From NCBI GenBank assembly GCA_041661545.1, contig JBAZUH010000001.1:339877-403876 (forward strand): 64,000 nt of DNA. Direction: 5' to 3'. Origin of the DNA: Candidatus Staskawiczbacteria bacterium. GTDB lineage: Bacteria > Patescibacteriota > Minisyncoccia > Minisyncoccales > Staskawiczbacteraceae. Both the position numbers and the translations under genes were made by a program. Shown in pieces: positions 5,725 to 64,000 of the stretch (the first letter of the stretch is position 1; every line of letters begins with the position of its first letter). The notes under the pieces were generated by a model that was given only the letters and a program-made list of their open reading frames with translations, did no database searches and was not told the origin of the DNA.

Positions 5725-5799
5725 TAATTTATTTATGCTAAACAAATCCTGCGCTTTTTATTATGCAATATTTTCAGTAAATAATATTTATTAATTATA

Positions 5800-34071: not shown

Positions 34072-34395
34072 TCACACTTTTTTGCCACGGGGCGTCCTAG
34101 CAGCCGCTTTTATAGAGTCTACAATATCAGTATCCGCCATTTCTTTGGCAAATCGTTTTTTAAGGGCCGAGATCATTTCGGTTGCATCTTCATGGTGATC
34201 GACCTCTCTAATACGCAGACCCGTCTCTTTTGGAAATACTCGTGCCCAAATGCTTAAAGACCCTGTAATTACATTCCTAAGCTCGCTGGGATTAGACAAA
34301 GACTCCAAAAATACACGTCGCGACTCACCTTGTAATCCTTCATATTTATTCACTATCCACACTACGAATCTCGGTTCCAGTGGTTCCCTTTTCAT
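34072..34395 (-). CDS. Island A orphan protein A1 (107 aa)
   Basis: Candidate TTTACA-N17-TAAATT promoter upstream on the minus strand, after the atpC terminator. Paralogous to A2. Confidence 0.55.
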   Translation of the reverse strand: MKREPLEPRFVVWIVNKYEGLQGESRRVFLESLSNPSELRNVITGSLSIWARVFPKETGLRIREVDHHEDATEMISALKKRFAKEMADTDIVDSIKAAARTPRGKKV

Positions 34396-47016: not shown

Positions 47017-47165
47017 ATATTTCTTTATGACACAATTTTAAAATAAAAACCAATAAAAAAACTATAAAAACGTTGACCTTTTATAAAAATTATTGACATA
47101 AATTGTTAGAGTGATAGCATTATATTAATTGAGCAAGTTGCTCATTTACAAAAAGGGGGGACAAA

Positions 47166-47387
47166 ATGGAAATTCATACACGTATACGACTGCCAAATCA
47201 CAAATATAAGCGCATAATACATAATGAGGTGCAAGCACGAGAAACTGTTGCACGCAGTGCTTGCCCTCACAAAGAAGACGCGGAGCGTTTGAGAAGTGGT
47301 AAGATGTTCTGCACCTTGCTCAATAGAACAGTAAAAATACGCAATAGTTGTTGCCGTTGCAGTGACTGTCGTAATTTTCATTCTTAA
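47166..47387 (+). CDS. Island C: possible basic Cys-rich 73-aa protein (or a non-coding transcript)
   Basis: aaaaggggggacaaaATG is an unusually strong SD for this window. TTGACA lies at 47093-47098 with TGaTAGCAT. The C-terminus is CCRCSDC. No family is recognised. Confidence 0.35.
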   Translation: MEIHTRIRLPNHKYKRIIHNEVQARETVARSACPHKEDAERLRSGKMFCTLLNRTVKIRNSCCRCSDCRNFHS

Positions 47388-47481
47388 TTTTAGGATAACC
47401 AACTTATTCATGGCTAGTTAGCATCTGCTTTCTTAGCCTTCTTTTTTTGTATGGAAATTATGATATCATAGATAAATATCT

Positions 47482-48226: not shown

Positions 48227-49336
48227 ATGATAATTTCAATAAATAACGCATTTGAAGCTACAATAATCTTTAATATTATTTTGGGCATAATTTTGCTTTT
48301 ATCTTTGCGTAAAAAAAACGACAAAGGAATTTTTCCTATTTCGCTAAGTCAAGAATTAAAGGGCATTGCAATTTTGCTTGTTGTATTTTCTCATGTGGGG
48401 TATTTCTTGGTTACAGATAACAGATTTTTATTTCCCTTGTCGGATTTAGCTGGCGTAGGAGTTGATTTATTTTTGTTTCTTTCTGGGTTAGGGCTAACTG
48501 CTAGTGCTTTTAAAAATAAACTACCAATATTAAATTTTTATCATAAACATTTCTTAAAATTATTTACCCCTCTTTGGCTAACTTTAATTGGCCTTTTAAC
48601 ATTAGATTTTTTTGTTTTAAAAATAACTTATTCTTGGCAATTTATTGCAAAATCCTTTTTGGGAATTTTTACTACGGCCGACATATATAAAGACATAGAT
48701 TCTCCATTATGGTATTTTACTTTAATATTATTTTATTATCTTGTTTTTCCAATTTTCTTTTCTAAAAAAAGGCCGTGGTTGTCAGCCATTATAATTTATG
48801 CTGTTAGTTATATAATTTTATACTTAAACATACCAGCTATATATAACGTATCGTTTTTCCACGAAAAACATATTATAGCCTTTCCTTTGGGCATGATAAT
48901 TTCTTGGATTTTTTACCAGCTAGCAGATAAAAATAAAATAAATATAAATAAATATGCATCTATAATTGGACGTTATACATTAATAGCTATGCTAATAGCA
49001 TTTATTTTTTATTCCCACTCTTATTTTAGACAACTAACCAACCCAGACCAAATTCAATTTGCTAGTATTGCCACAGTATTGGCCATTATTATTATATTTA
49101 TGGCAAAAAAGTTTGAATTTAAATTATTAAGCTTAATTGGTGTATACTCTTACGAAATTTATCTTTTGCACTGGCCAATTATGTATAGATATGATTTTAT
49201 TTATCAATATTTGCCCGCTTGGTTGGCTACGCTAATTTATATTCCAGTTTTAATAACTATTGCCTGGCTATTTAAAAAACTTGTTGATTTAATTTTAAAT
49301 AGAAAAAAACCATCTAAAAATGAGATGAAGGATTGA
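48227..49336 (+). CDS. Acyltransferase family 3 (membrane O-acyltransferase)
   Basis: LKGIAILLVVFSHVG, in a polytopic protein. Confidence 0.75.
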   Translation: MIISINNAFEATIIFNIILGIILLLSLRKKNDKGIFPISLSQELKGIAILLVVFSHVGYFLVTDNRFLFPLSDLAGVGVDLFLFLSGLGLTASAFKNKLPILNFYHKHFLKLFTPLWLTLIGLLTLDFFVLKITYSWQFIAKSFLGIFTTADIYKDIDSPLWYFTLILFYYLVFPIFFSKKRPWLSAIIIYAVSYIILYLNIPAIYNVSFFHEKHIIAFPLGMIISWIFYQLADKNKININKYASIIGRYTLIAMLIAFIFYSHSYFRQLTNPDQIQFASIATVLAIIIIFMAKKFEFKLLSLIGVYSYEIYLLHWPIMYRYDFIYQYLPAWLATLIYIPVLITIAWLFKKLVDLILNRKKPSKNEMKD

Positions 49337-49446
49337 CTTTTTCATTTTTTTGGGTAAACTCTAGATAAGTACTTTGACAAGAGGAAATCGCTTTGCCGAG
49401 TGGCAAACGCGTATTTTGACTTATTGTCAGGGTAACCCACAAACCA

Positions 49447-50763
49447 ATGACGACCATGAAGAACCAACCGACAACCATGAAAACAAGGCTATGTTTCCTC
49501 AATGTACAACCCCACTGCCTTTTGGTGGGACAACCCGGCGGCTTCGCAACGGCAGAAGACTTCCACCGGTTCGCCGCCGAATGCGGGTTCACGGGCATCA
49601 CCATGCCCACCGGATTCGTGGACATCGATCAGGCCATTTCCAGCTCGTCATACCGGGACGATTTCCAAGCAAACCTGATCGGCTGTGGCCTCACCGACGG
49701 TTTGGTGCGGATGGAAATGCACGTGGACGGCCAAAATGTCTGCGTGGCGCCCTACCGGGTCAAGCGCACGGGGCACTTCGTGAGCCCCGACTTCGCCACC
49801 ACGAATGTGGCGAACATGGAAGGCCTGGCCAAGGACAATTTGTTCAAGGCCATCGATGCATCGGCCGCCTTCGGGTTCAAATACTTGCCCGGTTTCTGCG
49901 GTGGACGCGGGTTCGCTGCCGCCATGGCAAAATGGCCGGCATGGCCCAAGCATCTCCCAGCGTGGGTGATGGGGTTGCTGGCTCTCAAGTGGCAACCAAT
50001 CCTGGAATATGCAGCCGACAGGGGCGTGACCATCACATTCGAATTCGGTCACCCCGAAAACGACCTGCTAACCGGCGCCAACTTCGTGCTCTTCTACAGC
50101 ATGCTGTCGGACAAAGCCAAACTTGGTGTTGGCATCAACGCAGATGCCTCGCACTTCCTCAACATCGGCATCAACCCGATGCCTCACCTGGACAAGGCCG
50201 CCGAAACCGGTTGCAAATTTACTAACCATTTCAAGTGGGGCGCTTCGGTGGACCGGGGGGATGGCACTGCCTCCACTTACGGCGGGTGGACCAACTGGTC
50301 GCAATCGTCCACGACGTTCTTCACCTTCGCCACTGTGGGGCCCGACTGGCTCGCCCGCGAGTTCTACGAGTTCCTCCTGGCGATGACCAGGAAACAGGGC
50401 GACGAATGCTTCGACGTTGTTTATGAAGGCGAAGATGCCACCATCATCAACCCCAAGCAAGCCATGCAGATTGGTGCCGCCAACTGTCGTGCAGCCATCA
50501 CCGGCGATCGCTTTATCAAGCTGAACGGCGTTGTGGACGAGGAAGATTTCGTTATGACCACTCCGATGGAGGTGAACGATGTCGCACTCTATTTCCCCGG
50601 CGGACGTTTGCTGGAACTTGAATCCTGGGCCGGCGGACCCTTTGACCAGGCCTTTGATAGCCCGCTCAAGCCCTATGATCTGCTCGAAATGGACTGCCAT
50701 GAAGTCACGGCTTGCCGGCAGTTGCTAGCTGACACCGGCCACGAAGCCGAAGCAGAGGCGTGA
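49447..50763 (+). CDS. Island D: xylose-isomerase-like TIM-barrel (sugar phosphate isomerase/epimerase superfamily) protein, 438 aa, strongly G+C-rich
   Basis: ITFEFGHPENDLL and GINADASHF resemble the metal-ligand strands of the AP-endonuclease-2/xylose-isomerase-like fold. A hand count gives 39/60 G+C at 49561-49620 versus 16/60 at 49141-49200. Confidence 0.6.
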   Translation: MTTMKNQPTTMKTRLCFLNVQPHCLLVGQPGGFATAEDFHRFAAECGFTGITMPTGFVDIDQAISSSSYRDDFQANLIGCGLTDGLVRMEMHVDGQNVCVAPYRVKRTGHFVSPDFATTNVANMEGLAKDNLFKAIDASAAFGFKYLPGFCGGRGFAAAMAKWPAWPKHLPAWVMGLLALKWQPILEYAADRGVTITFEFGHPENDLLTGANFVLFYSMLSDKAKLGVGINADASHFLNIGINPMPHLDKAAETGCKFTNHFKWGASVDRGDGTASTYGGWTNWSQSSTTFFTFATVGPDWLAREFYEFLLAMTRKQGDECFDVVYEGEDATIINPKQAMQIGAANCRAAITGDRFIKLNGVVDEEDFVMTTPMEVNDVALYFPGGRLLELESWAGGPFDQAFDSPLKPYDLLEMDCHEVTACRQLLADTGHEAEAEA

Positions 50764-50789
50764 CCACGCTCGCTGCTCAACAAACCCAA

Positions 50790-50825
50790 GCCTGGGGAAC
50801 ACGATGTTCCCTGGGCACTTTTTTT
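50790..50825 (+). terminator. Strong intrinsic terminator of island D
   Basis: gcctggggaaca-cga-tgttccctgggc forms a 12-bp stem including G-U pairs, followed by ac and ttttttt. Confidence 0.75.
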
Positions 50826-50870
50826 ACATAAATATGCAATATAAATATAAAATGTTATAATTCTAATATT

Positions 50871-52229
50871 ATGAAGCAAAAAGAAGCTTTCGATATATTA
50901 AAATCTGGATATAATACTTTTTTAACAGGCCCGCCAGGAAGCGGGAAAACTTTTTTATTAAACAATTATATTAAATATTTAAAAAAGAATAACGTGGTTG
51001 TTTCTATAACTGCCAGCACGGGAATTGCCGCCACTCATATGGGCGGGGTTACTTTGCATTCTTGGAGTGGACTGGGAATTCGCGATGAGTTGGATGATTC
51101 AGAAGTGAAAAAAGCTTGCGAACGTGGATATATAAGAAAAAGGATAAAAAATACAGGAGTTTTAATTATTGACGAAATTTCTATGATAAAAGCTTCACAG
51201 TTTGAGGCTGTAAATAAAATTTGCCAATATATAAAAAGAAGCCCAAGGCCATTTGGTGGCATACAAGTTGTATGCTCGGGAGATTTTTTTCAACTTCCAC
51301 CAGTTTATAAAAATGAAAAACCTAAAAGCATAATTCAGGGCGAACTTTTTAATCCAGAACAGAACAAACCAACGTTTGTTACCGAATCTGGAGCTTGGAA
51401 AAGTTTAGATATGAAAGTTTGTTATTTAGATGAACAATATAGAACAAAAGATAAACAACTAACTAAAATTTTAAATCATATAAGAGAAGACCAGGCCGAG
51501 AAATCAAAAAAGCTACTTTTTGATACGCATAAAAATAAAAATGAGCAAAAACGTATTTTGACAAAATTATATACCCACAATATTGATGTAGATACAATAA
51601 ATTATAACGAATTAAATAAAATAAAAGGCAAAGAATATTATTATCAAATGACTTCTCGCGGGAACCCAATAGTTTCTGATATTTTGAAAAAAAGTTGTTT
51701 AGCTCCTGAAAAATTAATTTTAAAGGAAGGTGCGCATGTTATGTTTATAAAAAATAATTTTGAAGCAGGTTATGTAAACGGCACTCAAGGAAAAGTTGTT
51801 GGTTTTGTTGCCGCTGATTTGCCAGTTATACAAACAGAAGAAGGTAAAAAAATAACCGTTACTTATGCTGATTGGACCATTGAAGAAGATAAATCTATTA
51901 TTGCTGGCATTTCACAAATTCCATTAAGATTAGCTTGGGCTATTACTGTGCATAAAAGTCAGGGGATGAATTTAGATTCAGCAGAAATGGATTTATCAAA
52001 ATGTTTTTTGCCCGGCATGGGATATGTGGCTTTGTCACGTTTAAAATCACTAAAAGGATTAAATTTATTGGGCATAAATAATTTAGCTTTTTGTGTAAAC
52101 CAAAAAGCTATAGAAGTAGATAAAAATTTTAAAAAATTATCTAAAGAATCGTCTGCTGAACTAAAAAAGATATCTTCTGGAGATATCAGCAAGCGTCAAA
52201 AACTGTTTATAAAATACCTCGGCGGGTAA
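50871..52229 (+). CDS. Pif1/RecD-family SF1B DNA helicase
   Basis: GPPGSGKTF, IIDEISMI, GDFFQLPPV, and ITVHKSQG. Confidence 0.85.
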   Translation: MKQKEAFDILKSGYNTFLTGPPGSGKTFLLNNYIKYLKKNNVVVSITASTGIAATHMGGVTLHSWSGLGIRDELDDSEVKKACERGYIRKRIKNTGVLIIDEISMIKASQFEAVNKICQYIKRSPRPFGGIQVVCSGDFFQLPPVYKNEKPKSIIQGELFNPEQNKPTFVTESGAWKSLDMKVCYLDEQYRTKDKQLTKILNHIREDQAEKSKKLLFDTHKNKNEQKRILTKLYTHNIDVDTINYNELNKIKGKEYYYQMTSRGNPIVSDILKKSCLAPEKLILKEGAHVMFIKNNFEAGYVNGTQGKVVGFVAADLPVIQTEEGKKITVTYADWTIEEDKSIIAGISQIPLRLAWAITVHKSQGMNLDSAEMDLSKCFLPGMGYVALSRLKSLKGLNLLGINNLAFCVNQKAIEVDKNFKKLSKESSAELKKISSGDISKRQKLFIKYLGG

Positions 52230-52235
52230 AGCCCA

Positions 52236-52262
52236 CCAAAAAAACCGCCTCATCGGCGGTTT
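52236..52262. terminator. Hairpin terminator shared by the Pif1 gene and island E
   Basis: aaaaaaaccgcctcatcggcggtt. The A-run gives a T-run on the minus strand. Confidence 0.55.
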
Positions 52263-52431
52263 AATTTCAACTATGAACTGACAACTAATAGTTACAAGCT
52301 CAAGTGTTGGGAGGAACTTATCGCGTTCCTCCATATTTTGTGGCAAGCCACACGTCAGGATTAGAACCTGAAGATATTCGAGAATATGGTCTCAATACCT
52401 ATGCCGGCTTTTTCAAAAGCCGTAAAACGAA

Positions 52432-52953
52432 TTACCTGGTGGCAAAAACCTTGCCCTTGCCCACCCCAAGCATAAAGATTTTGCTATCGTCGGAGAACTC
52501 GTACCCGCAGGAGAACGTAGTCCCTGTAGGGTTCGGAACAAATTTCCAGCTCCACGCCGAAAACTGGCGCCGACAAATTGGCAAAGGATTTAGCCCCAGG
52601 CGATAGCATTCCCTCATCCAAATAGCACTAGGAAGCACCGGGAATGTTGTCATCCACTCCTTGCTATTCGGGAATCCTATCGGTACCCACTCACCGAGGT
52701 CGGAAGGATTGACGATGGCGACAACCGGTTCGATCCCCCTCCAACTGTTGCCTTCCGAGACAAGTTCAAACGGCCCTGACCCTAATGGACCAGATTCTCG
52801 TCTCAGGGTAAATCCGTGCTCAAGACAGCCTCCTTTACCGAGATACTCGTCAGCGATGTCCACAAGACCAATGAGGTATAGGTCAAGTTCCATCTGCCAG
52901 GAGGTGTAATAGCGGGGAACAGAGCCACCGATGTGATAGAGTAGCGTTTTCAT
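52432..52953 (-). CDS. Island E orphan protein (173 aa from ATG 52953; the track ORF starts at GTG 52998)
   Basis: MKTLLYHIGGSVPRYYTSWQMELDLYLIG... No family is recognised. G+C is elevated. Confidence 0.55.
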   Translation of the reverse strand: MKTLLYHIGGSVPRYYTSWQMELDLYLIGLVDIADEYLGKGGCLEHGFTLRRESGPLGSGPFELVSEGNSWRGIEPVVAIVNPSDLGEWVPIGFPNSKEWMTTFPVLPSAIWMRECYRLGLNPLPICRRQFSAWSWKFVPNPTGTTFSCGYEFSDDSKIFMLGVGKGKVFATR

Positions 52954-53152
52954 GTTTTCAGTCTTTCTGCACTCTCTAACGGGGAGTTTTCCGCTCACTT
53001 CTGTTGTCTTTTTTAAACAGTTGGTAAAGCCTAGTAAGTGGCTCCCTGAATTCGTAGTGAACGCAGGTTACTGTTCCCTGCTCTAGCAAGGCGCAAAAAC
53101 CTGCATTCACTAACTATGTTTTCAAATTACTATCAATTTATCCTATATATTT

Positions 53153-53181
53153 ATTATACCACCATTAAGCGACCTTGTCAA
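53153..53181 (-). promoter_or_regulatory. Consensus promoter of island E (TTGACA-N17-TATAAT on the minus strand)
   Basis: tgtcaa at 53176-53181 and attata at 53153-53158, with a 17-nt spacer. About 190 nt of leader follow, containing a 15-bp stem at 53055-53112. Confidence 0.6.
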
Positions 53182-53207
53182 GCCTTTCTGACTCGCAAAA
53201 TAACCTA

Positions 53208-53253
53208 CAAAAAAAGTCGCGTTTTTGACGGCCGTCAAAAACGCGACTTTTTT
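53208..53253. terminator. Perfect palindromic bidirectional terminator, copy 1
   Basis: aaaaaaaGTCGCGTTTTTGACGGCCGTCAAAAACGCGACtttttt. A 30-nt core is repeated at 61172-61207. Confidence 0.75.
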
Positions 53254-53257
53254 ATAT

Positions 53258-54391
53258 TTATGCTTCGCTAATTAAAATAGACGTTATTTGATCAAATATT
53301 GTGTGGGGCATATATAACTCTTTCATTTTATCTTTCACATCAATGTGAACTGTTTTGCCCATCATGCTGTCTATTTTTTCATAAACTAATTTTACAGAAT
53401 CAAAATTTATAATCCAATCATTTAATCCTAAATTATTAAATGTTTCAGAAACTCCCATATTATAGTTAACCATTGCCGGCGTGCCAGAAGCTATAGATTC
53501 TTTGGCAACATTTCCATAGGTTTCAAAATGAGAAGGGCTAATAACCACCCCCATATTTTTATAAAATGACGCTAAGTCCTTGTTATTTTTTGGTTTATGA
53601 AACGTAACTACTTTAGAAAGTCTTTTGTATATTTTATTATTCTTATCTAAATCAGTAATAATATTTACCACAAACTTATTTCCATTTTTATTATTATAAT
53701 TTGCTAAATTTTCACAAAAACGAACATTTTTTATTCCTGTCCATCTGCTTACTATTCCTATATTTATTTTGTCTATTTGATTTTCTTCTTCAAAAAAATG
53801 AGCTGAAACAGGATTTGGAATAACAGCTGATTTTTTAACTTTATGTTTAAAAACTTCTTTTTCAACAACGTTTTTTGTAATTTCTGATGGAAAAATATAA
53901 AACATATTCTTTTTATCAAAAGATCTTTCCATATCTAAAAATATTTTTCTTTGCCTTTTGCCCCAATTTTGAACTTCTTTCATTAATACGCCGTGATAAT
54001 GCAAAACTGCTGGAACGTTTTCTCGTTCTGAAGCCAAAAGCAAACACCAAGGCATAAAATATGTTCCATTTATTAAAACTAAATCTGGTTTTTCTTTTTT
54101 TATAGCTTTTTGATATGCCAATATTACTTGCTCATAAGCTAATTCTACTTCTGCTAAATTTTTTGCCTTATTTACAATTTTTGCAATATCGGGAACATTA
54201 ACCCCAATAGATACGGTGCTAGTTTTATTAGTGCTAATTTTTTTATATGTTTTTCTATTTTTATTTAATACAGTAACTGCTGTAATATTTAAATTATTAC
54301 CCTTACTTTTTTCAATAAAATCCATAAAAGACAAAACCACCTGAGCAATTCCGGCAGTATGGGCAAATTTTATGTTTGTTAATACTTTCAT
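53258..54391 (-). CDS. Glycosyltransferase family 4 (GT-B)
   Basis: SHFETYGNVAKESIASGTPAMV (E-x7-E region). Confidence 0.75.
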   Translation of the reverse strand: MKVLTNIKFAHTAGIAQVVLSFMDFIEKSKGNNLNITAVTVLNKNRKTYKKISTNKTSTVSIGVNVPDIAKIVNKAKNLAEVELAYEQVILAYQKAIKKEKPDLVLINGTYFMPWCLLLASERENVPAVLHYHGVLMKEVQNWGKRQRKIFLDMERSFDKKNMFYIFPSEITKNVVEKEVFKHKVKKSAVIPNPVSAHFFEEENQIDKINIGIVSRWTGIKNVRFCENLANYNNKNGNKFVVNIITDLDKNNKIYKRLSKVVTFHKPKNNKDLASFYKNMGVVISPSHFETYGNVAKESIASGTPAMVNYNMGVSETFNNLGLNDWIINFDSVKLVYEKIDSMMGKTVHIDVKDKMKELYMPHTIFDQITSILISEA

Positions 54392-54507: not shown

Positions 54508-54619
54508 TATTAATCAATGATAGAAATAATTTAGTATAGTAGGAACAGGATTCCTTGCTATTGAAATTTCGCCGAAAGCGAAACAACTTTGTTGCCAAAC
54601 TACCAACTAATCGAACACC

Positions 54620-54805
54620 ATGAAAACCACAGAAATACCGCCGCCACAATTGGGTATCCCCGTTTCTAAAGCCGCAGAGAAAAAAATGAAAGTAACAATG
54701 CGTCGATGGACGCGTACCAATGTACGAGAAATGGGAAATGCATTCGACCCAAAAAAAACGGCTTCGGTAAGAGCAACTCCGCAAGAGCTAATTAGCTTCG
54801 AATAG
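54620..54805 (+). CDS. Island F orphan basic protein (61 aa)
   Basis: MKTTEIPPPQLGIPVSKAAEKKMKVTMRRWTRTNVREMG... Has a CA-rich leader, a terminator immediately downstream, and elevated G+C. Confidence 0.45.
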   Translation: MKTTEIPPPQLGIPVSKAAEKKMKVTMRRWTRTNVREMGNAFDPKKTASVRATPQELISFE

Positions 54806-54829
54806 AGCTAAAAAGCTGCAACAGTCTTT

Positions 54830-54861
54830 AACCGCAGGTTTCACCTCGCGGTTCTTTTTTT
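54830..54861 (+). terminator. Intrinsic terminator of island F
   Basis: aaccgcaggtttcacctcgcggtt followed by a T-run. Confidence 0.65.
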
Positions 54862-54896
54862 GAGCGCGTAATATAACTTCATTAAACGCGCGAAAC
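54862..54896 (+). promoter_or_regulatory. GAGCG-hairpin-CGAAAC motif, copy 3
   Basis: tttttttGAGCGCG-taatataacttcattaaa-CGCGCGAAAC. Confidence 0.55.
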
Positions 54897-54948
54897 CTCG
54901 CCGAAGCGGGATGCCCTTTGGACCGCGAAGGCGGGTGCATGTAGTGAT

Positions 54949-55150: not shown

Positions 55151-56410
55151 ATGATAAACGAAAAAATACAAACTCCCCTATCTAACACAGCCGAAATTAC
55201 TTTTGGTGGTCTTGGTATAGCTCCAAAAATTTTAGATACTATTATAAGGTTGGGCTTTAAAACTCCAACCTCTATTCAGCACAAAGCAATTCCAGTTGCG
55301 GTTGAAGGAAAAGATATAATTGGGATAGCTCAAACCGGCACAGGAAAAACTTTGGCTTTTGGAATTCCGCTAATTCAACAAATTCTAAAAAATAACGGCA
55401 AAGGATTAATTATTTTGCCCACTCGTGAGCTAGCTATACAAGTTAACGAAACTATACAAAAAATAGGAAGAGATTTTGGCATAAAAACTGTTGTATTAAT
55501 TGGAGGAACCCATATTAGACCACAAATGAGAGAGCTTTCTTTTAACCCTCATATTGTAATTGGAACTCCAGGAAGAATTAATGACCATATTCAGCAAAGA
55601 ACTTTGCGATTAGATAGAGTTTCGGTTTTAGTTTTGGATGAGGCCGATAGAATGTTTGATATGGGATTTGCTCCTCAAATATCAAAAATATTGCAGTCTG
55701 TGCCAAAAGAAAGGCAAACAATGTTATTTTCTGCAACTATGCCAGATCAAATAGTAAAAATTGCCACTTTTCATATGAAACTACCTGTTAGAGTAGAAAT
55801 AGCAAGAGCAGGAACTACTGCAGAAAACATAGAACATGAATTGTTTGTTGTTAGAAAAGAACAAAAATTTGCATTATTAAAAAAATTATTAGAAGAATAT
55901 AAAGGAAGTGTTTTAGTGTTTTTAAGGGTTAAACATAATGCAAGAAAAATTTGCGACCATTTGCGTGTAGCCAGAATAACTGCAGCTGAAATACACTCAA
56001 ACAGATCTTTAAATCAAAGAAAAGAGGCTTTAGAGGGTTTTAAAACCGGTAGATTTAGAGTTTTAGTGGCAACAGACATTGCTTCAAGAGGCATAGATGT
56101 AAAAAATATAGAATTAGTAATTAACTATGATTTGCCAGAAAATGCAGAAGATTATGTGCATAGAATTGGCAGAACCGGCAGGGCAGGCATGTCGGGAAAA
56201 GCAATATCATTTGCAACGCCAGATCAAGGTTCTGTTGTTAGAGAAATTGAAATGTTAACTAGAATTAATTTACCAATTTCAAAATTGCCCGATGATTTAC
56301 CAGTTGTTGCAAGTCAACCTTCAACTACTTTTAATAAACCTGGTCGCTCACAACAAAGAAATAGACCATCGGGTAGATTTAACCATGGCAAACGAAGATA
56401 TCAAAGATAA
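55151..56410 (+). CDS. DEAD-box ATP-dependent RNA helicase
   Basis: Q-motif region, AQTGTGKT, VLDEAD, SAT, and HRIGRTGRAG. Confidence 0.9.
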   Translation: MINEKIQTPLSNTAEITFGGLGIAPKILDTIIRLGFKTPTSIQHKAIPVAVEGKDIIGIAQTGTGKTLAFGIPLIQQILKNNGKGLIILPTRELAIQVNETIQKIGRDFGIKTVVLIGGTHIRPQMRELSFNPHIVIGTPGRINDHIQQRTLRLDRVSVLVLDEADRMFDMGFAPQISKILQSVPKERQTMLFSATMPDQIVKIATFHMKLPVRVEIARAGTTAENIEHELFVVRKEQKFALLKKLLEEYKGSVLVFLRVKHNARKICDHLRVARITAAEIHSNRSLNQRKEALEGFKTGRFRVLVATDIASRGIDVKNIELVINYDLPENAEDYVHRIGRTGRAGMSGKAISFATPDQGSVVREIEMLTRINLPISKLPDDLPVVASQPSTTFNKPGRSQQRNRPSGRFNHGKRRYQR

Positions 56411-57644
56411 ATATGATGTTGCTATTATTGGTGCAGGACCAGCTGGCATAATGGCAGCTGGCAAAGCATCTAGCCTTGGCTTAAAAGTAATTTTAATAGA
56501 AAAAAATTCTAGCCTTGGCAAAAAATTACTTTTAACCGGAAATAGCAGGTGCAACTTAACAAACGCTGAATTTAATTTAAAAAATTTAATTTCAAATTAT
56601 AACAAAGGCGCGGAATTTTTATTCCACGTTTTTTCTGTTTTTGGACCAAAAGAAACAATAGAATTTTTTAGTAATTTAGGTTTAAAAACTAAAATTGAAA
56701 AATCTAATAGAGTTTTTCCTACAAGTGATAGCTCTAAAGAAGTTTTAGAAACCCTTAAAAAATATCTTGAAAATAATAAAGTAAACATTTTATACAATTC
56801 TGAAATAAAAAAAATTGTTAAAAACGGCAAAAGTATTGAAAAAATAATCTTACAAGATAAAGAGATTAGGGCTAAAAAATATATTTTAACAACTGGAGGC
56901 AAGTCATACCCATTAACTGGTTCTAATGGAGCGGGCTATGAACTAGCAAAAAAATTAGGACACACTATTGTGCCACTATCACCCGCATTAGCTCCAATAA
57001 AATTAAAAAATAGTTGGATAAAAAATTTACAAGGCATAAGTTTAAAAAATGTTGCAATAAATATTTTATCAAACAATAAAAAATATTCTGGTGGGCAGGG
57101 AGAAATTATGTTTACTCATTCTGGAATAAGCGGGCCTGCTATTATGAATATAAGCGATAAAGTTGGAGAACTGCTTGAAAAAAGCGAAACTAAAATATGT
57201 TTAGATTTTTTTCCGCTTTTAAGCCAGCAAGAAGTTTTAAATAATTTTGAAGAATTATTAAAAAAATATCCTAAAAAAACAATCAAAAATATATTAGCAG
57301 AACTTTTACCAGAAAAATTTTCCGAAATTATGCTTTATATTTTAGGCATAGACAGAGAAAAAATAGCCAATAATATGTCTAAAATAGAAAAACAAAAAAT
57401 AACAAAAGTTTTAAAAGGCTTTGAAGTTGAGGTAGAAAATGTTGCCGGCTTTGAGCAAGCTATAGTTACAAAAGGAGGAATTTCTTTAAAAGAAATAGAC
57501 CATAAAACAATGAAGTCTAAAATAATTGATAATTTATTTTTTGCCGGAGAAATTATTGATATTAATGGAAAAACTGGCGGGTTTAATTTGCAGGCTTGTT
57601 GGAGCACGGGATATATAGCAGGGCAAAGTTGTTTAAAAAATTAA
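56385..57644 (+). CDS. HI0933/YhiN-like FAD-dependent oxidoreductase
   Basis: Likely start is MANEDIKDKYDVAIIGAGPAGIMAAG (ATG 56385). Also LLLTGNSRCNLTN. The track ORF start at 56292 overlaps the helicase. Confidence 0.75.
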   Translation: MANEDIKDKYDVAIIGAGPAGIMAAGKASSLGLKVILIEKNSSLGKKLLLTGNSRCNLTNAEFNLKNLISNYNKGAEFLFHVFSVFGPKETIEFFSNLGLKTKIEKSNRVFPTSDSSKEVLETLKKYLENNKVNILYNSEIKKIVKNGKSIEKIILQDKEIRAKKYILTTGGKSYPLTGSNGAGYELAKKLGHTIVPLSPALAPIKLKNSWIKNLQGISLKNVAINILSNNKKYSGGQGEIMFTHSGISGPAIMNISDKVGELLEKSETKICLDFFPLLSQQEVLNNFEELLKKYPKKTIKNILAELLPEKFSEIMLYILGIDREKIANNMSKIEKQKITKVLKGFEVEVENVAGFEQAIVTKGGISLKEIDHKTMKSKIIDNLFFAGEIIDINGKTGGFNLQACWSTGYIAGQSCLKN

Positions 57645-59671: not shown

Positions 59672-59775
59672 GTTACACAACAAGCTTGACATTATAATTA
59701 AATTATGATAAAAGCAATTTAGCAAAGCGAGTAGCACTTACTCGCCCTTTACAATCAAACCAACCACCTACCAAT

Positions 59776-59994
59776 ATGTTCTACACCCCTCTTTATCGTT
59801 GTAACCAGTGCGGTTCAATTCAGTTGCGCACTCCCATAGAAGCGGAAAATGTTGTGCAGCTTGAGGAGAAATTGCCATCAATTCCGCGAATCATCATCCA
59901 TCGCTGTACATGGATTGGTTGCACTACTAAACCCTCAGGAACTTTGGGAGTTTGCGAACTCATTGCATTCCAACCCGAAGACCTCAAAGACTAA
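59776..59994 (+). CDS. Island G protein G1 (72 aa, Cys-containing, possible zinc ribbon)
   Basis: CNQCGS...HRCTWIGC. TTGACA lies at 59686-59691 upstream, and the leader is CA-rich (aaccaaccacctaccaatATG). Confidence 0.5.
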   Translation: MFYTPLYRCNQCGSIQLRTPIEAENVVQLEEKLPSIPRIIIHRCTWIGCTTKPSGTLGVCELIAFQPEDLKD

Positions 59995-60020
59995 CTACCA
60001 ACCCCGTCAAACCAACCGAA

Positions 60021-60296
60021 ATGAAAATAATTATTCTTTCGCTGATATTGAATTCTGTCAGCGCAGTTTTCGCGCTGACCCATGGCTACATTGCCTGGGC
60101 AGTGTGGTTTGAATTATTCACCATTTTATCGGCGGTGGTTCTGATAAACGCAATCTTTGCGCGTTATTCTAAGAAAGCTCGACCCCGCATTACGTACCTA
60201 AAATCATGTGCTTTGGCTCTGTATTCGTTCTTGGGATCTCTGAGCCTAATTGCCTTCTGGGCCATGATCGCATGGCGAGCATGGCACGCGATGTAG
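60021..60296 (+). CDS. Island G membrane protein G2 (91 aa, three TM helices)
   Basis: MKIIILSLILNSVSAVFALTHGYIAWAVWFELFTILSAVVLINAIF... This is an internal ATG of the track ORF 59952..60296, preceded by caaaccaaccgaa. Confidence 0.5.
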   Translation: MKIIILSLILNSVSAVFALTHGYIAWAVWFELFTILSAVVLINAIFARYSKKARPRITYLKSCALALYSFLGSLSLIAFWAMIAWRAWHAM

Positions 60297-60315
60297 AACC
60301 AAACCAACTAAACCG

Positions 60316-60450
60316 ATGAACTTCAAATTCTGGGTCATCATTGGCGTCTGTGCGATTATTGCATGGACATGCGTCGCGTGGTACAGCAACCAAGACCCCC
60401 GGCGCAAGCAACTCAATCCTCCGGAAACCGAAAACACGACCACGCCATGA
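60316..60450 (+). CDS. Island G micro-membrane protein G3 (44 aa)
   Basis: MNFKFWVIIGVCAIIAWTCVAWYSNQDPRRKQLNPPETENTTTP. Its stop overlaps the G4 start (ATGA). Below the track cutoff. Confidence 0.4.
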   Translation: MNFKFWVIIGVCAIIAWTCVAWYSNQDPRRKQLNPPETENTTTP

Positions 60451-60944
60451 GACCAACGAAAACCATGCATTGCAATACATGCGGAGAAACATTTCAAATA
60501 AGGGAGGGCGAAAGTTGCATGTGTCCCTTCTGCCTTGGAGTCAGAAGGCAAAAAACGTTCATAACTGAACCGACCAAAACCTTGGAAACCACGATTAAAA
60601 TTCTGTTTGTCATTTTTGCTATTGTTGCTGCCATTGCTACTGGCGTCGTCGAAGGTTCCAGAGAAAGATCGTCAACGGCATACCAGTTTAAATGGGTGAA
60701 TGATGATAAAGGATGGGAAATCTCCGACCCTGACAGTCTTCCCCAGTCAATCACCAGTCCTTATGGATTCCTCCATGGGTGGGTAACTTATGGAAGATCG
60801 CACACCCTAGTAATCCCGCACTCATGGTTCGGCGACAAGGAGGTCCGCGTCCATTTCTGGGACAACACTCCCAAACAAGTGCAAGCGGAAATCGTGGACG
60901 AAATACCTGAATGGTTGGAAACCGAAACCACGACCACGCCATGA
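60447..60944 (+). CDS. Island G protein G4 (165 aa: zinc ribbon + TM + extracytoplasmic domain)
   Basis: CNTCGETF...CPFC, then the TM segment ILFVIFAIVAAIATGVV. Ends ETETTTTP on the same 28-nt junction sequence as G3. Confidence 0.5.
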   Translation: MRPTKTMHCNTCGETFQIREGESCMCPFCLGVRRQKTFITEPTKTLETTIKILFVIFAIVAAIATGVVEGSRERSSTAYQFKWVNDDKGWEISDPDSLPQSITSPYGFLHGWVTYGRSHTLVIPHSWFGDKEVRVHFWDNTPKQVQAEIVDEIPEWLETETTTTP

Positions 60945-61120
60945 AAAAGCTACCAGATACCGACAAAACGTTAGCCAAATTCTTCCTAGGATTATCCGAC
61001 GAACAAATCGGGCAATTCGTGCGCAGAATTCTTACCGGGAAAAAGCCGAAGGCCGAAAAAATACGGCCACGCAAAAAAGGCTCGAGAAAACCCAAAACCA
61101 AAAGAGGCAAACCCCTCTAA
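60941..61120 (+). CDS. Island G basic protein G5 (59 aa)
   Basis: MKKLPDTDKTLAKFFLGLSDEQIGQFVRRILTGKKPKAEKIRPRKKGSRKPKTKRGKPL. ATGA-coupled to G4. Confidence 0.45.
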   Translation: MKKLPDTDKTLAKFFLGLSDEQIGQFVRRILTGKKPKAEKIRPRKKGSRKPKTKRGKPL

Positions 61121-61171
61121 CATGCCAAAGTTAATTCTGCGGCTCTTTTTTTGCATAAGCATCCGCAAAAA

Positions 61172-61207
61172 TAGTAGCGTTTTTGACGGCCGTCAAAAAC
61201 GCGACTA
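61172..61207. terminator. Palindromic bidirectional terminator, copy 2
   Basis: tagtaGCGTTTTTGACGGCCGTCAAAAACGCgacta. The core is identical to 53216-53247. Confidence 0.7.
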
Positions 61208-61243
61208 TTTTTGAGGGATGCATAAATGTTTCCTTAATACTCT

Positions 61244-63133: not shown

Positions 63134-63270
63134 AATAATCGCTCGGCAACAAACTTTTATTTTCGCTCGCCAAATCAAATTTTTGCTCGTCGGGGGAATG
63201 TCCCCAAGGCGATTGCCCCTCCTCCAAAAATTTATTTGGCTCGCTACAATAGTTTATTGCCTCACTTTAA
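63134..63270. repeat. G+C-rich structured repeat, copy E4 (inverted relative to E1-E3; in the typA 3'UTR)
   Basis: Begins aatcgctcggcaacaaac and ends gtttattgcctcac, which are the family arms in reverse orientation. Confidence 0.65.
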
Positions 63271-63299: not shown

Positions 63300-63405
63300 G
63301 CTTGTCCTGAGCGAAGTCGAAGGATTGACAATTTTGCAAAAAGTCATAAGATATAATTACTCAAACAAAATAGCTTTTTGACAACCAACCAACGGAAACA
63401 ACACC

Positions 63406-63981
63406 ATGAGCATGAACCTAAAAAGCATTACTTATGTAAGCGTGATTGCAGTTGGTATAACCAGCATGTTTAGCAAGAAGGACTCAACCATAGCGATTAT
63501 AGGCTTAGTGTTGGCAATTATTGGTCTACTCATCCTTCTATGGGATATTCTTAGATCCAAGCCAAATAGTAACTCCAAGCAAATAACCTATGGCCAGTTT
63601 CTTGATACCATGGGCGATGTGGCGGAGGACTTTCCAAGCGCAAACGCATTTTTCCAAATGCTATATATCACCATTACTGGCTATCAATGGGAAATCCGCA
63701 GTGCGACACCCGTAGGTACAGAACACGTCAAACATTTCGTTGACATCATGCACCGAGATTTTTGGGAATTGATAAGCGAAGGAGATGCCGTAGGAGCTCT
63801 GCAATCGGAAGCGGGCGCATTCTTATGCGCTGTTCGCAATAAGTGCGTTGAGCTGGGCATTGATGTCGGTGGCATCAATTTTAACCCCCCGCTATCACCC
63901 AGAGAAACGCCTCTCACAAGTGGCAATAAAGATCTAACATTGGCCGACATATCGGTAGTTAACGACCACCCTGGAGACTGA
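63406..63981 (+). CDS. Island H membrane-anchored orphan protein (191 aa)
   Basis: Two N-terminal TM helices and a G+C-richer soluble domain. TTGACA lies at 63325-63330 and the leader is CA-rich (caaccaaccaacggaaacaacaccATG). Confidence 0.55.
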   Translation: MSMNLKSITYVSVIAVGITSMFSKKDSTIAIIGLVLAIIGLLILLWDILRSKPNSNSKQITYGQFLDTMGDVAEDFPSANAFFQMLYITITGYQWEIRSATPVGTEHVKHFVDIMHRDFWELISEGDAVGALQSEAGAFLCAVRNKCVELGIDVGGINFNPPLSPRETPLTSGNKDLTLADISVVNDHPGD

Positions 63982-64000
63982 ACTTTAAGCTTTACCCAGA

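What the first reader, a model, noticed from the sequence alone, without database searches (positions are those of the whole stretch)
49350..50830. Island D: a single ~60% G+C TIM-barrel gene embedded in a ~30% G+C genome
ORF 49447-50763 has the strongest compositional contrast in the window: 39/60 G+C in a hand-counted line versus 16/60 just upstream. All six frames are open, as is typical of high-G+C DNA.

Its product resembles xylose-isomerase-like TIM-barrel sugar phosphate isomerases/epimerases, with ITFEFGHPEND and NADASHF strands. At 438 aa it is longer than typical family members.

It ends with a 12-bp G+C-rich terminator. The boundaries are sharp, within tens of nt of the acyltransferase stop and the Pif1 start.

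This looks like a recent, unameliorated horizontal acquisition from a high-G+C donor. For an episymbiont, the host is one candidate donor (speculative).
Basis: partly seen in the sequence, partly recalled or inferred. Interest (0 to 1): 0.6.

Follow-up and report, generated by a model that had tools for sequence, protein, structure and literature searches.

The report
Persistently GC-rich sugar-enzyme gene
One sugar-modifying enzyme gene in an AT-rich ultra-small (CPR) bacterium really is strikingly GC-rich, but it is not a recent import: a sister species carries it at the same spot, just as GC-rich, after about one silent change per site, so something is actively keeping it GC-rich.

Summary
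A 58% G+C gene (49447/49477-50763, +) sits with sharp edges in ~30% G+C DNA of a Candidatus Staskawiczbacteria genome, and it has its own promoter-like site, conserved 5' leader hairpin and 12-bp terminator. The product is a confidently modelled xylose-isomerase-fold TIM barrel. Its closest solved relative is AtHYD (2-hydroxy-3-keto-glucal hydratase, 8ro4). It belongs to a rare long-form family (26 proteins among 5.8 billion).

A second Staskawiczbacteria genome has the ortholog in the same locus. It has diverged as much as its neighbours (dS ~1, dN/dS 0.18), yet GC3 is identical (0.73/0.72) while the neighbours' GC3 drifted (about 0.2 vs 0.35). Polarised silent changes are balanced (12 GC>AT: 10 AT>GC), not the ~12:1 expected for decay. 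Even an ancestor with 100% GC at 4-fold sites could not give today's value neutrally. In all 12 loci examined the gene is GC-richer than its flanks.

Best reading: an old, possibly once-foreign, single-gene unit whose GC-rich silent sites are held by selection or another GC-favouring fixation bias. The mechanism is unknown. Moderately interesting as an evolutionary oddity; the enzyme is a divergent variant of a known kind.

The parts
49333..49360 (+). Promoter-like site TTGACT-16 nt-TAAACT. It overlaps the stop codon of the upstream acyltransferase gene. AT-rich (GC 0.25).
   Evidence: Consensus scan. One such site is no more than chance in this region, but both hexamers are identical in the orthologous locus L007. 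GC.
49370..49434 (+). Conserved 5' leader hairpin (28 pairs, imperfect). The apical part, 49392-49407, resembles a weak terminator.
   Evidence: MFE -32.1 / -28.5 kcal/mol, z -2.4 in both genomes. 92% identical between genomes, vs ~76% for the CDS. Of 28 pairs, 23 are invariant, 3 have one-sided wobble-compatible changes, 1 has a double compensatory change and 1 is broken; two sequences give no statistical power. No Rfam match. Not found elsewhere.
49435..49476 (+). CA-rich, apparently unstructured tract without a Shine-Dalgarno sequence, immediately before the preferred start codon. In the window it contains two extra in-frame ATGs (49447, 49456) created by a 21-nt-spaced duplication.
   Evidence: Sequence. 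L007 has ACCAACCAACCAACC before its ATG. Fold shows no pairing here. Duplication D1.
49477..50763 (+). Coding sequence (428 aa from the preferred start; the maximal ORF starts at 49447) of a long-form AtHYD-like xylose-isomerase-fold TIM-barrel enzyme. GC 0.583, GC3 0.727.
   Evidence: ORF. Homolog N-termini. dN/dS 0.18 vs the L007 ortholog. AF2 pLDDT 91.7. Foldseek best hit 8ro4, E 6e-19. Profile vs PDB: 8ro4, E 2.4e-29.
50790..50826 (+). Intrinsic terminator: 12-pair G+C-rich stem (50790-50816) plus a T-run.
   Evidence: Scan. Fold -22.7 kcal/mol, z -3.1. Conserved in L007 with z -3.5.

Best explanation
This is an old, self-contained, single-gene transcription unit: promoter, structured 5' leader, SD-less CA-rich tract, ORF, terminator. 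It was already present between the acyltransferase gene and the downstream FAD-oxidoreductase/Pif1 region (Pif1 directly follows it in the window) in the common ancestor of at least two Candidatus Staskawiczbacteria species.

It encodes a CPR-type long form of the AtHYD/SCO6571 branch of xylose-isomerase-fold TIM barrels. Most likely this is a divalent-metal-dependent enzyme acting on a keto-sugar intermediate, by hydration, beta-elimination or isomerisation of a 3-keto-glycoside-derived enol/ketone. In some relatives it is paired with a Gfo/Idh/MocA oxidoreductase.

Its G+C richness is not a fading signature of recent transfer. It is a stable, family-wide property with two components. One is a conserved Gly/Ala-rich, Lys/Ile-poor protein, which sets GC1 and GC2. 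The other is GC-rich synonymous sites held near equilibrium against the genome's AT-biased mutation, by selection on the coding or transcribed sequence or by some other GC-favouring fixation bias.

Shown: age, synteny, purifying selection, non-decay of GC3, fold.
Inferred: the enzymatic reaction, and that selection rather than another bias is the holding force. What selection would act on (mRNA stability/abundance, avoidance of AT-rich signals) is not resolved.
For: Age and verticality:
- L007 (Ca. Staskawiczbacteria bin-9095) is collinear with the window. Nucleotide identity is 76% for this gene, against 70-79% for five neighbours.
- Leader, promoter hexamers and terminator are conserved across the same junctions.

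Real gene: dN/dS 0.18.

Non-amelioration:
- dS is 0.97, yet GC3 is 0.727 vs 0.717, while neighbours' GC3 is 0.19-0.23 in the window vs 0.31-0.38 in L007.
- With L013 as outgroup, polarised changes are 12 GC>AT: 10 AT>GC at 4-fold sites and 32:15 at all synonymous third positions. Neutral expectation is ~12:1 (P ~2e-6) or ~5.6:1 (P 7e-4 to 3e-3). The 4-fold counts fit equilibrium.
- With the neighbours' 4-fold divergence as a clock, an ancestral GC4 of 1.45 (window) or 1.17 (L007) would be needed.

Family-wide pattern:
- In 12 loci the gene is 0.50-0.61 GC, against 0.33-0.52 background or 0.30-0.43 in the upstream 150 nt. GC1 (~0.54-0.65) and GC2 (~0.42-0.49) are nearly constant.
- The hierarchy of amino-acid identity (78 > 71 > 64 > 62 > 53%) is tree-like.

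Not tRNA adaptation: all synonymous classes are GC-shifted, the preferred base differs between lineages (C in the window and L007, G in L013), and atpA/atpD/TypA show no such bias.

The enrichment stops at the ends of the transcribed unit.

Fold and function:
- pLDDT 91.7.
- 8ro4 AtHYD has Foldseek E 6e-19 and TM 0.81; 2zds is next, and all others are at 5e-8 or weaker.
- The profile hits 8ro4 at 2.4e-29, with shared H..GQ, E.HP, D.SHF and H.K motifs.
- In L004 the adjacent gene is a Gfo/Idh/MocA oxidoreductase with the same anomalous GC. This matches the hydratase + Gfo reductase pairing described for AtHYD (PMC10628242).
- Experimental precedent exists for selection on genic G+C independent of codon adaptation (PMC4478552).
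Against: - Only two genomes share the locus, so the 'old' inference rests on one species pair.
- The polarisation uses a single, itself saturated outgroup and parsimony. That bias should inflate GC>AT counts, so the test is conservative, but the counts are small.
- At all synonymous third positions the ratio (32:15) departs mildly from 1:1 (P 0.02), so slow decay is not excluded.
- The clock calculation assumes an F81-like process and that neighbours are at mutational equilibrium.
- No known mechanism selects for +50 points of GC3 in one gene of an AT-rich genome.
- The one mechanism tested, a specifically selected mRNA fold, was negative (z -0.28 and -1.73 vs synonymous shuffles).
- Most family loci carry no taxonomic label, so 'CPR-specific' rests on two Staskawiczbacteria labels and one Patescibacteria label.
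- Function rests on 23% identity to an enzyme whose own activity was called 'preliminary' by its authors.
- No pathway partner lies in the 64-kb window.
Confidence: 0.6

Rival explanations
1. Recent, not yet ameliorated horizontal acquisition from a high-G+C donor, possibly the host.
For: - Sharp compositional boundaries and a self-contained unit.
- Codon usage unlike any other gene in the window.
- Family members sit as solo genes in unrelated contexts in other genomes.
- The broader AtHYD-type family lives in free-living, often GC-richer bacteria.
Against: - The ortholog sits at the same locus in a second species, with dS 0.97 and neighbour-like divergence.
- GC3 is equal in the two genomes despite different background GC3.
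- Polarised synonymous changes are balanced.
- A neutral model needs an impossible ancestral GC4 above 1.
- No close relative occurs in any labelled high-GC organism. The best non-family labelled proteins are ~25% identical.
- No mobility genes, tRNA or flanking repeats.
Confidence: 0.05
2. Old locus, with GC-richness renewed from outside rather than selected. Either the resident allele is repeatedly replaced by homologous recombination with GC-rich alleles circulating among CPR populations, or GC-biased gene conversion acts at a recombination hotspot centred on this gene.
For: - The gene's synonymous divergence is somewhat lower than its neighbours' (dS 0.97 vs 1.14-1.6; 4-fold identity 0.56 vs 0.33-0.47). 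This is compatible with a later exchange.
- The family is patchily distributed and always a solo unit.
- Other GC-rich single genes sit beside family members: Gfo/Idh/MocA in L004 and Fae in L009. This hints at a shared pool of GC-rich cargo.
- GC-biased conversion is discussed as an alternative to selection in the literature.
Against: - The GC step coincides with the transcribed unit in the window and with the ORF edge in all 11 other loci. Conversion tracts should blur into the flanks.
- Even using the gene's own divergence as the clock, the window lineage would need an ancestral GC4 of ~1.14 (derived values by the method).
- No GC-rich reservoir genome in which the gene matches its background was found. 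In the GC-richest loci it is still above its flanks overall, 0.61 vs 0.52 and 0.56 vs 0.49, although in L003 the immediately adjacent genes are almost as GC-rich, GC3 0.65-0.75 vs 0.74.
- The leader and terminator co-diverge with the gene.
Confidence: 0.2
3. Assembly chimera or contamination: a fragment of a high-GC organism mis-joined into a CPR contig.
For: Metagenome-assembled genome; abrupt GC change.
Against: - The same acyltransferase-to-gene junction, with the same leader, appears in independent assemblies from other samples: L007 (CAIYRH010000005.1), L001 (ERZ18625277) and a third contig.
- The promoter overlaps the upstream gene's stop codon.
- The window contig is 738 kb.
Confidence: 0.01
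4. The silent sites are constrained because the DNA or RNA has a second function: an overlapping or antisense gene, or an extensive functional mRNA structure.
For: - Long alternative ORFs exist in the window (283 aa in a + frame, 210 aa antisense).
- Synonymous sites evolve more slowly than in the neighbours.
Against: - Alternative-frame open stretches are not conserved across the family; the antisense maximum ranges from 88 to 399 codons.
- The native CDS folds no better than synonymous-codon shuffles (z -0.28; -1.73 in L007).
- GC3 is uniformly high along the gene, 0.62-0.90 per 40 codons, rather than in patches.
- No Rfam match.
Confidence: 0.03

Closest known systems
AtHYD, 2-hydroxy-3-keto-glucal hydratase of Agrobacterium tumefaciens (PDB 8ro4; WP_038490972.1; PMC10628242)
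   Same: - Same xylose-isomerase-like TIM-barrel fold: Foldseek E 6e-19, TM 0.81 on the target.
- Clear sequence homology: profile E 2.4e-29.
- Shared motifs around H92, E199/H202, D233/H236 and H261/K263.
- One family member (L004) sits next to a Gfo/Idh/MocA oxidoreductase, the partner type that reduces AtHYD's product.
   Different: - Only 23% identity.
- About 80-90 extra residues, including a conserved C-terminal tail (W-GGPFD-F-DSP-KP-ELL) absent from the ~350-aa forms.
- Family-invariant E90 aligns to Ser in AtHYD.
- No GlycDH, eliminase or Gfo partner in the window.
- Activity untested.
SCO6571 of Streptomyces coelicolor (PDB 2zds), uncharacterised member of the same TIM-barrel branch
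   Same: Second-best structural and sequence match: Foldseek E ~6e-14, TM 0.81-0.84; profile E 3.6e-14.
   Different: 19% identity; shorter (340 aa); function unknown, so it adds no mechanistic information.
Pfam PF01261 (AP_endonuc_2, xylose isomerase-like TIM barrel) / 'sugar phosphate isomerase/epimerase' annotation
   Same: Fold superfamily. Several family members pass the precomputed Pfam hit, and JGI names the protein this way.
   Different: The window protein scores 22.2 bits, below the 31.1-bit gathering cut-off. There is no NCBIfam model. It is a divergent outlier of the superfamily.
Classical compositional genomic island with amelioration (Lawrence & Ochman 1997 model, cited from my own knowledge and listed as ref. 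27 in PMC12455944)
   Same: Atypical G+C and codon usage, sharp borders, self-contained unit, patchy distribution.
   Different: - Present at the same site in a sister species.
- No decay of GC3 over dS ~1.
- Balanced polarised substitutions.
- No integrase, tRNA or repeats.
Selection on genic G+C content independent of codon adaptation (Raghavan, Kelkar & Ochman 2012, from my own knowledge; Kelkar et al. 2015, PMC4478552)
   Same: A GC-favouring force at synonymous sites that opposes AT-biased mutation and is not explained by species-specific codon preference.
   Different: Those studies concern genome-wide effects in E. coli and in GC-rich genomes. Here the effect would be confined to one gene family in AT-rich genomes, and it is far larger (+0.5 in GC3).

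Membership tests
Xylose-isomerase-like TIM-barrel superfamily (PF01261 clan) | (beta/alpha)8 barrel fold of the xylose isomerase type | tested here: met
   AF2 model has pLDDT 91.7 and pTM 0.91. 180 PDB chains match at E<=1e-3; those listed are of this fold, with 8ro4 and 2zds on top.
Xylose-isomerase-like TIM-barrel superfamily (PF01261 clan) | Score above Pfam's gathering threshold for PF01261 | tested here: not met
   22.2 bits vs cut-off 31.1, E 1.3e-4. Several homologs do carry a precomputed PF01261 hit.
Xylose-isomerase-like TIM-barrel superfamily (PF01261 clan) | Conserved acidic/histidine metal-binding residues on the barrel strands | tested here: inconclusive
   E90, H92, E199, H202, D233, H236, H261, K263, E327 and E329 are invariant in 26 sequences, and most align with AtHYD residues. 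The geometry in the model and actual metal binding were not examined.
AtHYD-type 2-hydroxy-3-keto-glycal hydratase | Closer in sequence and structure to AtHYD than to other branches (epimerases, xylose isomerases, IolE, eliminases) | tested here: met
   8ro4 at E 6e-19, vs 5e-8 or weaker for every branch other than 2zds. 8ro4 and 2zds are the only PDB sequence hits.
AtHYD-type 2-hydroxy-3-keto-glycal hydratase | Genomic association with glycoside 3-dehydrogenase, beta-eliminase and Gfo-type reductase (oxidation-elimination-hydration-reduction operon; PMC10628242) | tested here: not met
   Window neighbours are GDSL lipase, acyltransferase_3, Pif1, GT4, a DEAD helicase, an HI0933-like flavoprotein and Nramp. 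Only 1 of the loci examined (L004-L006, one species) has an adjacent Gfo/Idh/MocA gene.
AtHYD-type 2-hydroxy-3-keto-glycal hydratase | Same domain architecture (~350 aa, barrel only) | tested here: not met
   The family is 418-477 aa, with a conserved C-terminal extension shared with the ~400-aa Patescibacteria tier.
AtHYD-type 2-hydroxy-3-keto-glycal hydratase | Mn2+-dependent hydration of 2-hydroxy-3-keto-D-glucal | not testable with these tools
   Needs an enzyme assay.
Recently acquired genomic island | Atypical composition with sharp borders | tested here: met
Recently acquired genomic island | Absent from the same site in close relatives | tested here: not met
   Present at the same site in L007 and L001.
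Recently acquired genomic island | Composition decaying toward that of the recipient (excess of GC>AT changes) | tested here: not met
   12:10 at 4-fold sites vs ~12:1 expected.
Recently acquired genomic island | Mobility hallmarks (integrase/transposase, tRNA target, flanking direct repeats) | tested here: not met
   The nearest tRNAs are at 27-32 kb. No flanking repeats. No mobility domain in the neighbours.
Known cis-regulatory RNA (riboswitch/leader) for the 5' hairpin | Match to an Rfam family | tested here: not met
   No credible hit at E<=1 over 49300-53300 or at gathering thresholds.

The most novel reading that the evidence does not exclude
A single enzyme family of CPR/Patescibacteria is under gene-specific selection for G+C-rich synonymous sites, strong enough to hold GC3 ~0.5 above the genome's level for more than one synonymous substitution per site. 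Together with its own promoter, a 5' stabiliser-like hairpin, an SD-less CA-rich leader and a strong terminator, this would make it a portable 'composition-locked' expression cassette. That would be an unusually clean natural example of selection on genic base composition that is independent of tRNA adaptation and of any specific RNA fold. A more exotic version is that the composition is tuned to a GC-rich partner or host. The data do not exclude it, but nothing here supports it.
Probability: 0.35. Interest if true: 0.65.

Novelty: new variant of a known kind. Interest (0 to 1): 0.45.

Why it matters
Compositional outliers are routinely read as recent horizontal transfers, and CPR genomes are mined that way for host-symbiont exchange. 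This case shows a textbook-looking 'island' that is old and compositionally stable, so composition alone would mis-date it.

If the GC-rich silent sites are held by selection, the gene is a compact, testable natural system for the long-running question of what selects for G+C in bacterial genes. It offers one gene, two orthologs and an AT-rich background.

Separately, it defines a rare long-form branch of the AtHYD keto-sugar hydratase family in organisms with minimal metabolism. This hints that oxidative (3-keto) sugar chemistry may matter for CPR carbohydrate scavenging or surface-glycan processing.

Tried and rejected
- Specific mRNA structure as the reason for silent-site constraint: 40 synonymous-codon shuffles per gene gave z -0.28 (window) and -1.73 (L007). 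Rejected.
- Conserved overlapping or antisense ORF: open-frame lengths are not conserved across 12 genes. Rejected.
- tRNA/codon adaptation: the preferred third base differs among lineages, and highly expressed window genes lack the bias. Rejected.
- Insertion scars or mobility genes: none.
- Known RNA family for the leader or for the nearby GC-rich stretches: none.
- Covariation support for the leader hairpin: I first read two compensatory changes by eye. The formal count gives one double-sided change plus one re-registering indel, with no power from two sequences.
Two metagenome scans, one with the protein profile and one with the leader DNA pattern, returned nothing. Three contigs had no DNA on file: two carrying P0002, one of them later obtained as L007, and the P0004 contig.
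- The AtHYD structure paper could not be found in the library, so its catalytic residues could not be checked against a published mechanism.
- Relation of this island to the other GC-rich stretches of the window: no similarity.
Full report
**1. The observation**

The compositional step is real. In 200-nt windows, G+C is 0.27-0.30 up to position 49399, 0.53-0.61 from 49400 to 50799, and 0.26 again at 50800-50999. The whole window is 0.342.

ORF 49447-50763 (+), 438 aa, is present. Its GC is 0.581, with GC1/2/3 = 0.57/0.44/0.73. It is the only convincing protein-coding gene above 0.5 G+C in the 64 kb.

A GDSL lipase and a GT4 glycosyltransferase lie further out.

The terminator is a 12-pair stem at 50790-50816 plus a T-run. 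The quoted motifs ITFEFGHPEND and NADASHF exist and contain family-invariant residues.

Three corrections apply:
- The homologs start at MKTRL, so the likely start is the third in-frame ATG, at 49477 (428 aa). The two upstream ATGs arise from a small duplication.
- 'All six frames open' is overstated. The longest alternative open stretches are 40-248 codons.
- Pfam alone does not establish the fold. PF01261 scores 22.2 bits, against a cut-off of 31.1.

**2. Source and rarity**

The protein is 100% identical to a hypothetical protein of a Candidatus Staskawiczbacteria MAG (CPR/Patescibacteria), on a 738-kb contig.

The family is rare. There are 26 proteins among 5.8 billion in the word-indexed search. 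An exhaustive profile search of 1.84 billion cluster representatives gave 17 at E<=1e-30.

**3. What the protein is**

An AlphaFold2 model built on the 26-sequence alignment is confident (pLDDT 91.7, pTM 0.91). It is a xylose-isomerase-type TIM barrel.

Foldseek against the PDB puts AtHYD (8ro4, 2-hydroxy-3-keto-glucal hydratase of Agrobacterium tumefaciens) first, with E 6e-19, TM 0.81 on the target and 23% identity. SCO6571 (2zds) is second. All other branches (epimerases, xylose isomerases, IolE, Art22) are at E 5e-8 or weaker.

By sequence, 8ro4 and 2zds are the only credible PDB hits. The phmmer E-value for 8ro4 is 2.7e-17, and the family profile scores 2.4e-29 for 8ro4 and 3.6e-14 for 2zds.

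The family has invariant E90, H92, E199, H202, D233, H236, H261, K263, E327 and E329. Most of these align with AtHYD residues.

It differs from the ~350-aa AtHYD type by about 80-90 extra residues. These include a highly conserved C-terminal tail (W-GGPFD-F-DSP-KP-ELL), which is also present in a second tier of ~400-aa proteins, one of them labelled 'Patescibacteria group bacterium'.

According to PMC10628242, AtHYD hydrates the 2-hydroxy-3-keto-glucal released by a beta-eliminase. A Gfo-type oxidoreductase then reduces the resulting 3-keto-glucose. The operon performs oxidation, elimination, hydration and reduction. The authors call the hydratase evidence preliminary.

In the window no such partner is present. 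In one relative (L004-L006), the gene immediately downstream is a Gfo/Idh/MocA oxidoreductase.

I therefore infer a metal-dependent keto-sugar hydratase, lyase or isomerase of the AtHYD branch. I do not file it as an AtHYD ortholog.

**4. Anatomy of the unit**

The unit runs in this order:
- A promoter-like TTGACT-16-TAAACT (49333-49360) overlaps the acyltransferase stop codon.
- A 65-nt imperfect hairpin follows (49370-49434).
- A CA-rich tract without a Shine-Dalgarno sequence leads to the ATG at 49477.
- The ORF ends at 50763.
- The terminator follows at 50790-50826.

All of these non-coding parts are conserved in the orthologous locus of a second genome.

The hairpin folds with z about -2.4 in both genomes. 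It is 92% identical between them, while the coding sequence is 76% identical.

The formal pair count is modest. Of 28 pairs, 23 are invariant, 3 have one-sided changes, 1 has a double compensatory change and 1 is broken. Two sequences give no statistical power.

The hairpin matches no Rfam family and occurs nowhere else I could search. A third relative (L013) has a different leader with a canonical AAGGAG.

As inference only: a 5'-proximal hairpin, an unstructured CA-rich leader and a strong terminator are what one would expect of a stable, well-expressed monocistronic mRNA.

**5. Is it a recent transfer?**

The key result is L007, contig CAIYRH010000005.1 of another Candidatus Staskawiczbacteria genome. 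It is collinear with the window: GDSL lipase, acyltransferase, this gene, Pif1, DEAD helicase, Nramp, RRM protein. One FAD-oxidoreductase gene sits in a different position.

Nucleotide identity is 76% for this gene, against 70-79% for the neighbours.

Codon analysis gives, for this gene:
- dS 0.97 and dN/dS 0.18
- GC3 0.727 in the window and 0.717 in L007

For five neighbours it gives:
- dS 1.1-1.6 or saturated
- GC3 0.19-0.23 in the window but 0.31-0.38 in L007

So the gene is as old as the species split and is under purifying selection. Its silent-site composition stayed put while the two genomes' background drifted apart.

I polarised the silent changes since the split, using L013 (71% identical protein) as outgroup. 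At 4-fold sites there were 12 GC>AT and 10 AT>GC changes. At all synonymous third positions the counts were 32 and 15.

Neutral decay toward an equilibrium GC3 of 0.2 predicts about 12:1 (P ~2e-6). Decay toward 0.35 predicts about 5.6:1 (P 7e-4 to 3e-3). The 4-fold counts fit compositional equilibrium.

Taking the neighbours' 4-fold divergence as the clock, only 42% of any compositional excess should survive per lineage. Today's GC4 of 0.74/0.75 would then require an ancestral GC4 of 1.45 or 1.17, which is impossible.

These are simple models (F81-like, parsimony, one outgroup). Even so, the margin is large, and the known parsimony bias works against my conclusion.

**6. The pattern is family-wide**

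I obtained DNA for 12 loci. They come from about ten different genomes (L004-L006 are one species and counted once; L001 duplicates L007 and is not counted), with backgrounds of 0.33-0.52 G+C.

- The gene is always richer than its surroundings, at 0.50-0.61 overall.
- GC1 (0.54-0.65) and GC2 (0.42-0.49) are almost constant.
- GC3 is 0.49-0.74, above the median of neighbouring long ORFs in 10 of the 10 loci with enough flank (sign test P 0.001).
- The gene is above its short flanks in the other two loci.
- The upstream 150 nt is 0.30-0.43 in every locus, so the enrichment stops at the ORF edge.

Part of the excess therefore comes from the conserved, Gly/Ala-rich and Lys/Ile-poor protein. The silent sites need a separate cause.

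All synonymous classes are shifted:
- C/(C+T) is 0.74, against 0.16-0.32 in most host genes (0.62 in the small RRM gene, n=16).
- G/(G+A) is 0.38, against 0.08-0.15.
- 4-fold GC is 0.75, against about 0.2.

The preferred base differs among lineages: C in the window and L007, G in L013. Presumably highly expressed genes (atpA, atpD, TypA, RRM) show no comparable overall GC3 shift; only the small RRM gene has a raised C/(C+T), 0.62 at n=16. This argues against tRNA adaptation and for a force acting on G+C as such.

**7. Tests of what that force might be**

- A specifically selected mRNA fold is not supported. The native CDS compared with 40 synonymous shuffles gives z -0.28 in the window and -1.73 in L007.
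- A conserved overlapping gene is not supported.
- GC-biased gene conversion or repeated allelic replacement cannot be excluded. It is disfavoured by the sharp coincidence of the GC step with the transcribed unit. It is also disfavoured because I found no locus where the gene's overall G+C simply matches its background, although in L003 the adjacent genes come close.
- Selection on genic G+C independent of codon adaptation has experimental precedent (PMC4478552; Raghavan et al. 2012, from my own knowledge). Nothing known explains such a large effect confined to one gene.

**8. Other rivals**

A chimeric assembly is excluded. The same junction occurs in independent assemblies from different samples.

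There are no mobility genes, tRNA targets or flanking repeats.

No donor can be named. The second-tier relatives include a Patescibacteria-labelled protein. The labelled free-living relatives (Saprospiraceae, Lewinellaceae, Paracoccus, Paraburkholderia, Marinomonas) are only ~25% identical to the second-tier query used in that search, and AtHYD itself is 23% identical to the window protein.

A horizontal origin long ago remains plausible. The gene is a solo unit in unrelated contexts in different genomes. In L004 it forms a two-gene GC-rich pair with the Gfo/Idh/MocA gene (0.53 and 0.54 vs ~0.31).

**9. Verdict**

The protein-family guess is right in outline and can be refined to the AtHYD/SCO6571 branch, in a CPR-type long form.

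What remains is an old gene whose silent sites have resisted amelioration, by a mechanism I can only bound. It is not tRNA adaptation, not a specific RNA fold and not an overlapping gene.

Novelty: new variant of a known kind.

Interest: moderate (0.45). A genome-evolution specialist would find the non-amelioration surprising, and it is testable. However, it rests on one gene family and one syntenic species pair.

Noticed in passing
window 63145-63261 (- strand); L007 14086-14205 (+): A ~125-nt long imperfect hairpin (MFE -50.4 kcal/mol, z -6.1). It is 90% identical between the two Staskawiczbacteria genomes but sits in different contexts: just upstream of Nramp in L007, and downstream of a TypA-like GTPase in the window. 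No Rfam match. It could be a small RNA gene or a mobile palindromic element.
   Followed up: partly
window 53208-53253 and 61166-61213; L007 10657-10689: A perfect 20-bp palindrome flanked by an A-run and a T-run (AAAAAAAGTCGCGTTTTTGACGGCCGTCAAAAACGCGACTTTTTT; z -7.9). It looks like a bidirectional intrinsic terminator. It occurs twice in the window and once in the sister genome, so it is a repeated element.
   Followed up: partly
window 52240-53000: A ~0.5 G+C stretch between Pif1 and the GT4 gene. It holds only a 188-aa minus-strand ORF, with no Pfam hit and no Rfam hit. It is not conserved in L007, which has a different gene there. Nature unknown (ncRNA, degraded gene or another foreign fragment).
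   Followed up: partly
window 59700-61000, 63400-64000, 47100-47400, 54600-54900, 34072-34395: Further stretches of 0.41-0.49 G+C without convincing ORFs or Rfam matches. They are unrelated to each other and to this island by blastn.
   Followed up: partly
window 1-5800: No complete ORF of 90 aa or more apart from one 90-aa ORF at 1861-2133, G+C ~0.40, negative GC skew. Most likely a very large minus-strand gene running off the left end of the window.
   Followed up: no
L004 11527-12738 (also L005, L006): The Gfo/Idh/MocA oxidoreductase next to the family member is equally GC-rich (0.536, GC3 0.574) in a ~0.31 G+C genome. This makes a two-gene GC-rich pair that matches the hydratase + reductase partnership of the AtHYD pathway.
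   Followed up: partly
L009 9289-9792 (-): A formaldehyde-activating-enzyme (Fae) gene adjacent to the family member is also a GC outlier (0.571, GC3 0.756 vs ~0.43 background). This suggests that several small metabolic genes in these genomes share the anomaly.
   Followed up: no
window 56292-57644 vs L007 7871-9100: The HI0933-like FAD oxidoreductase lies directly downstream of the GC-rich gene in L007. In the window it has a ~45%-identical counterpart about 5.5 kb further downstream. This is a local rearrangement, or a pair of paralogs, between the two genomes.
   Followed up: no
window 49392-49417: The apical part of the leader hairpin (TTTGCC-GAGT-GGCAAA followed by CGCGTATTTT) is flagged as terminator-like. 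The leader could therefore act as a weak attenuator rather than, or as well as, an mRNA stabiliser.
   Followed up: no
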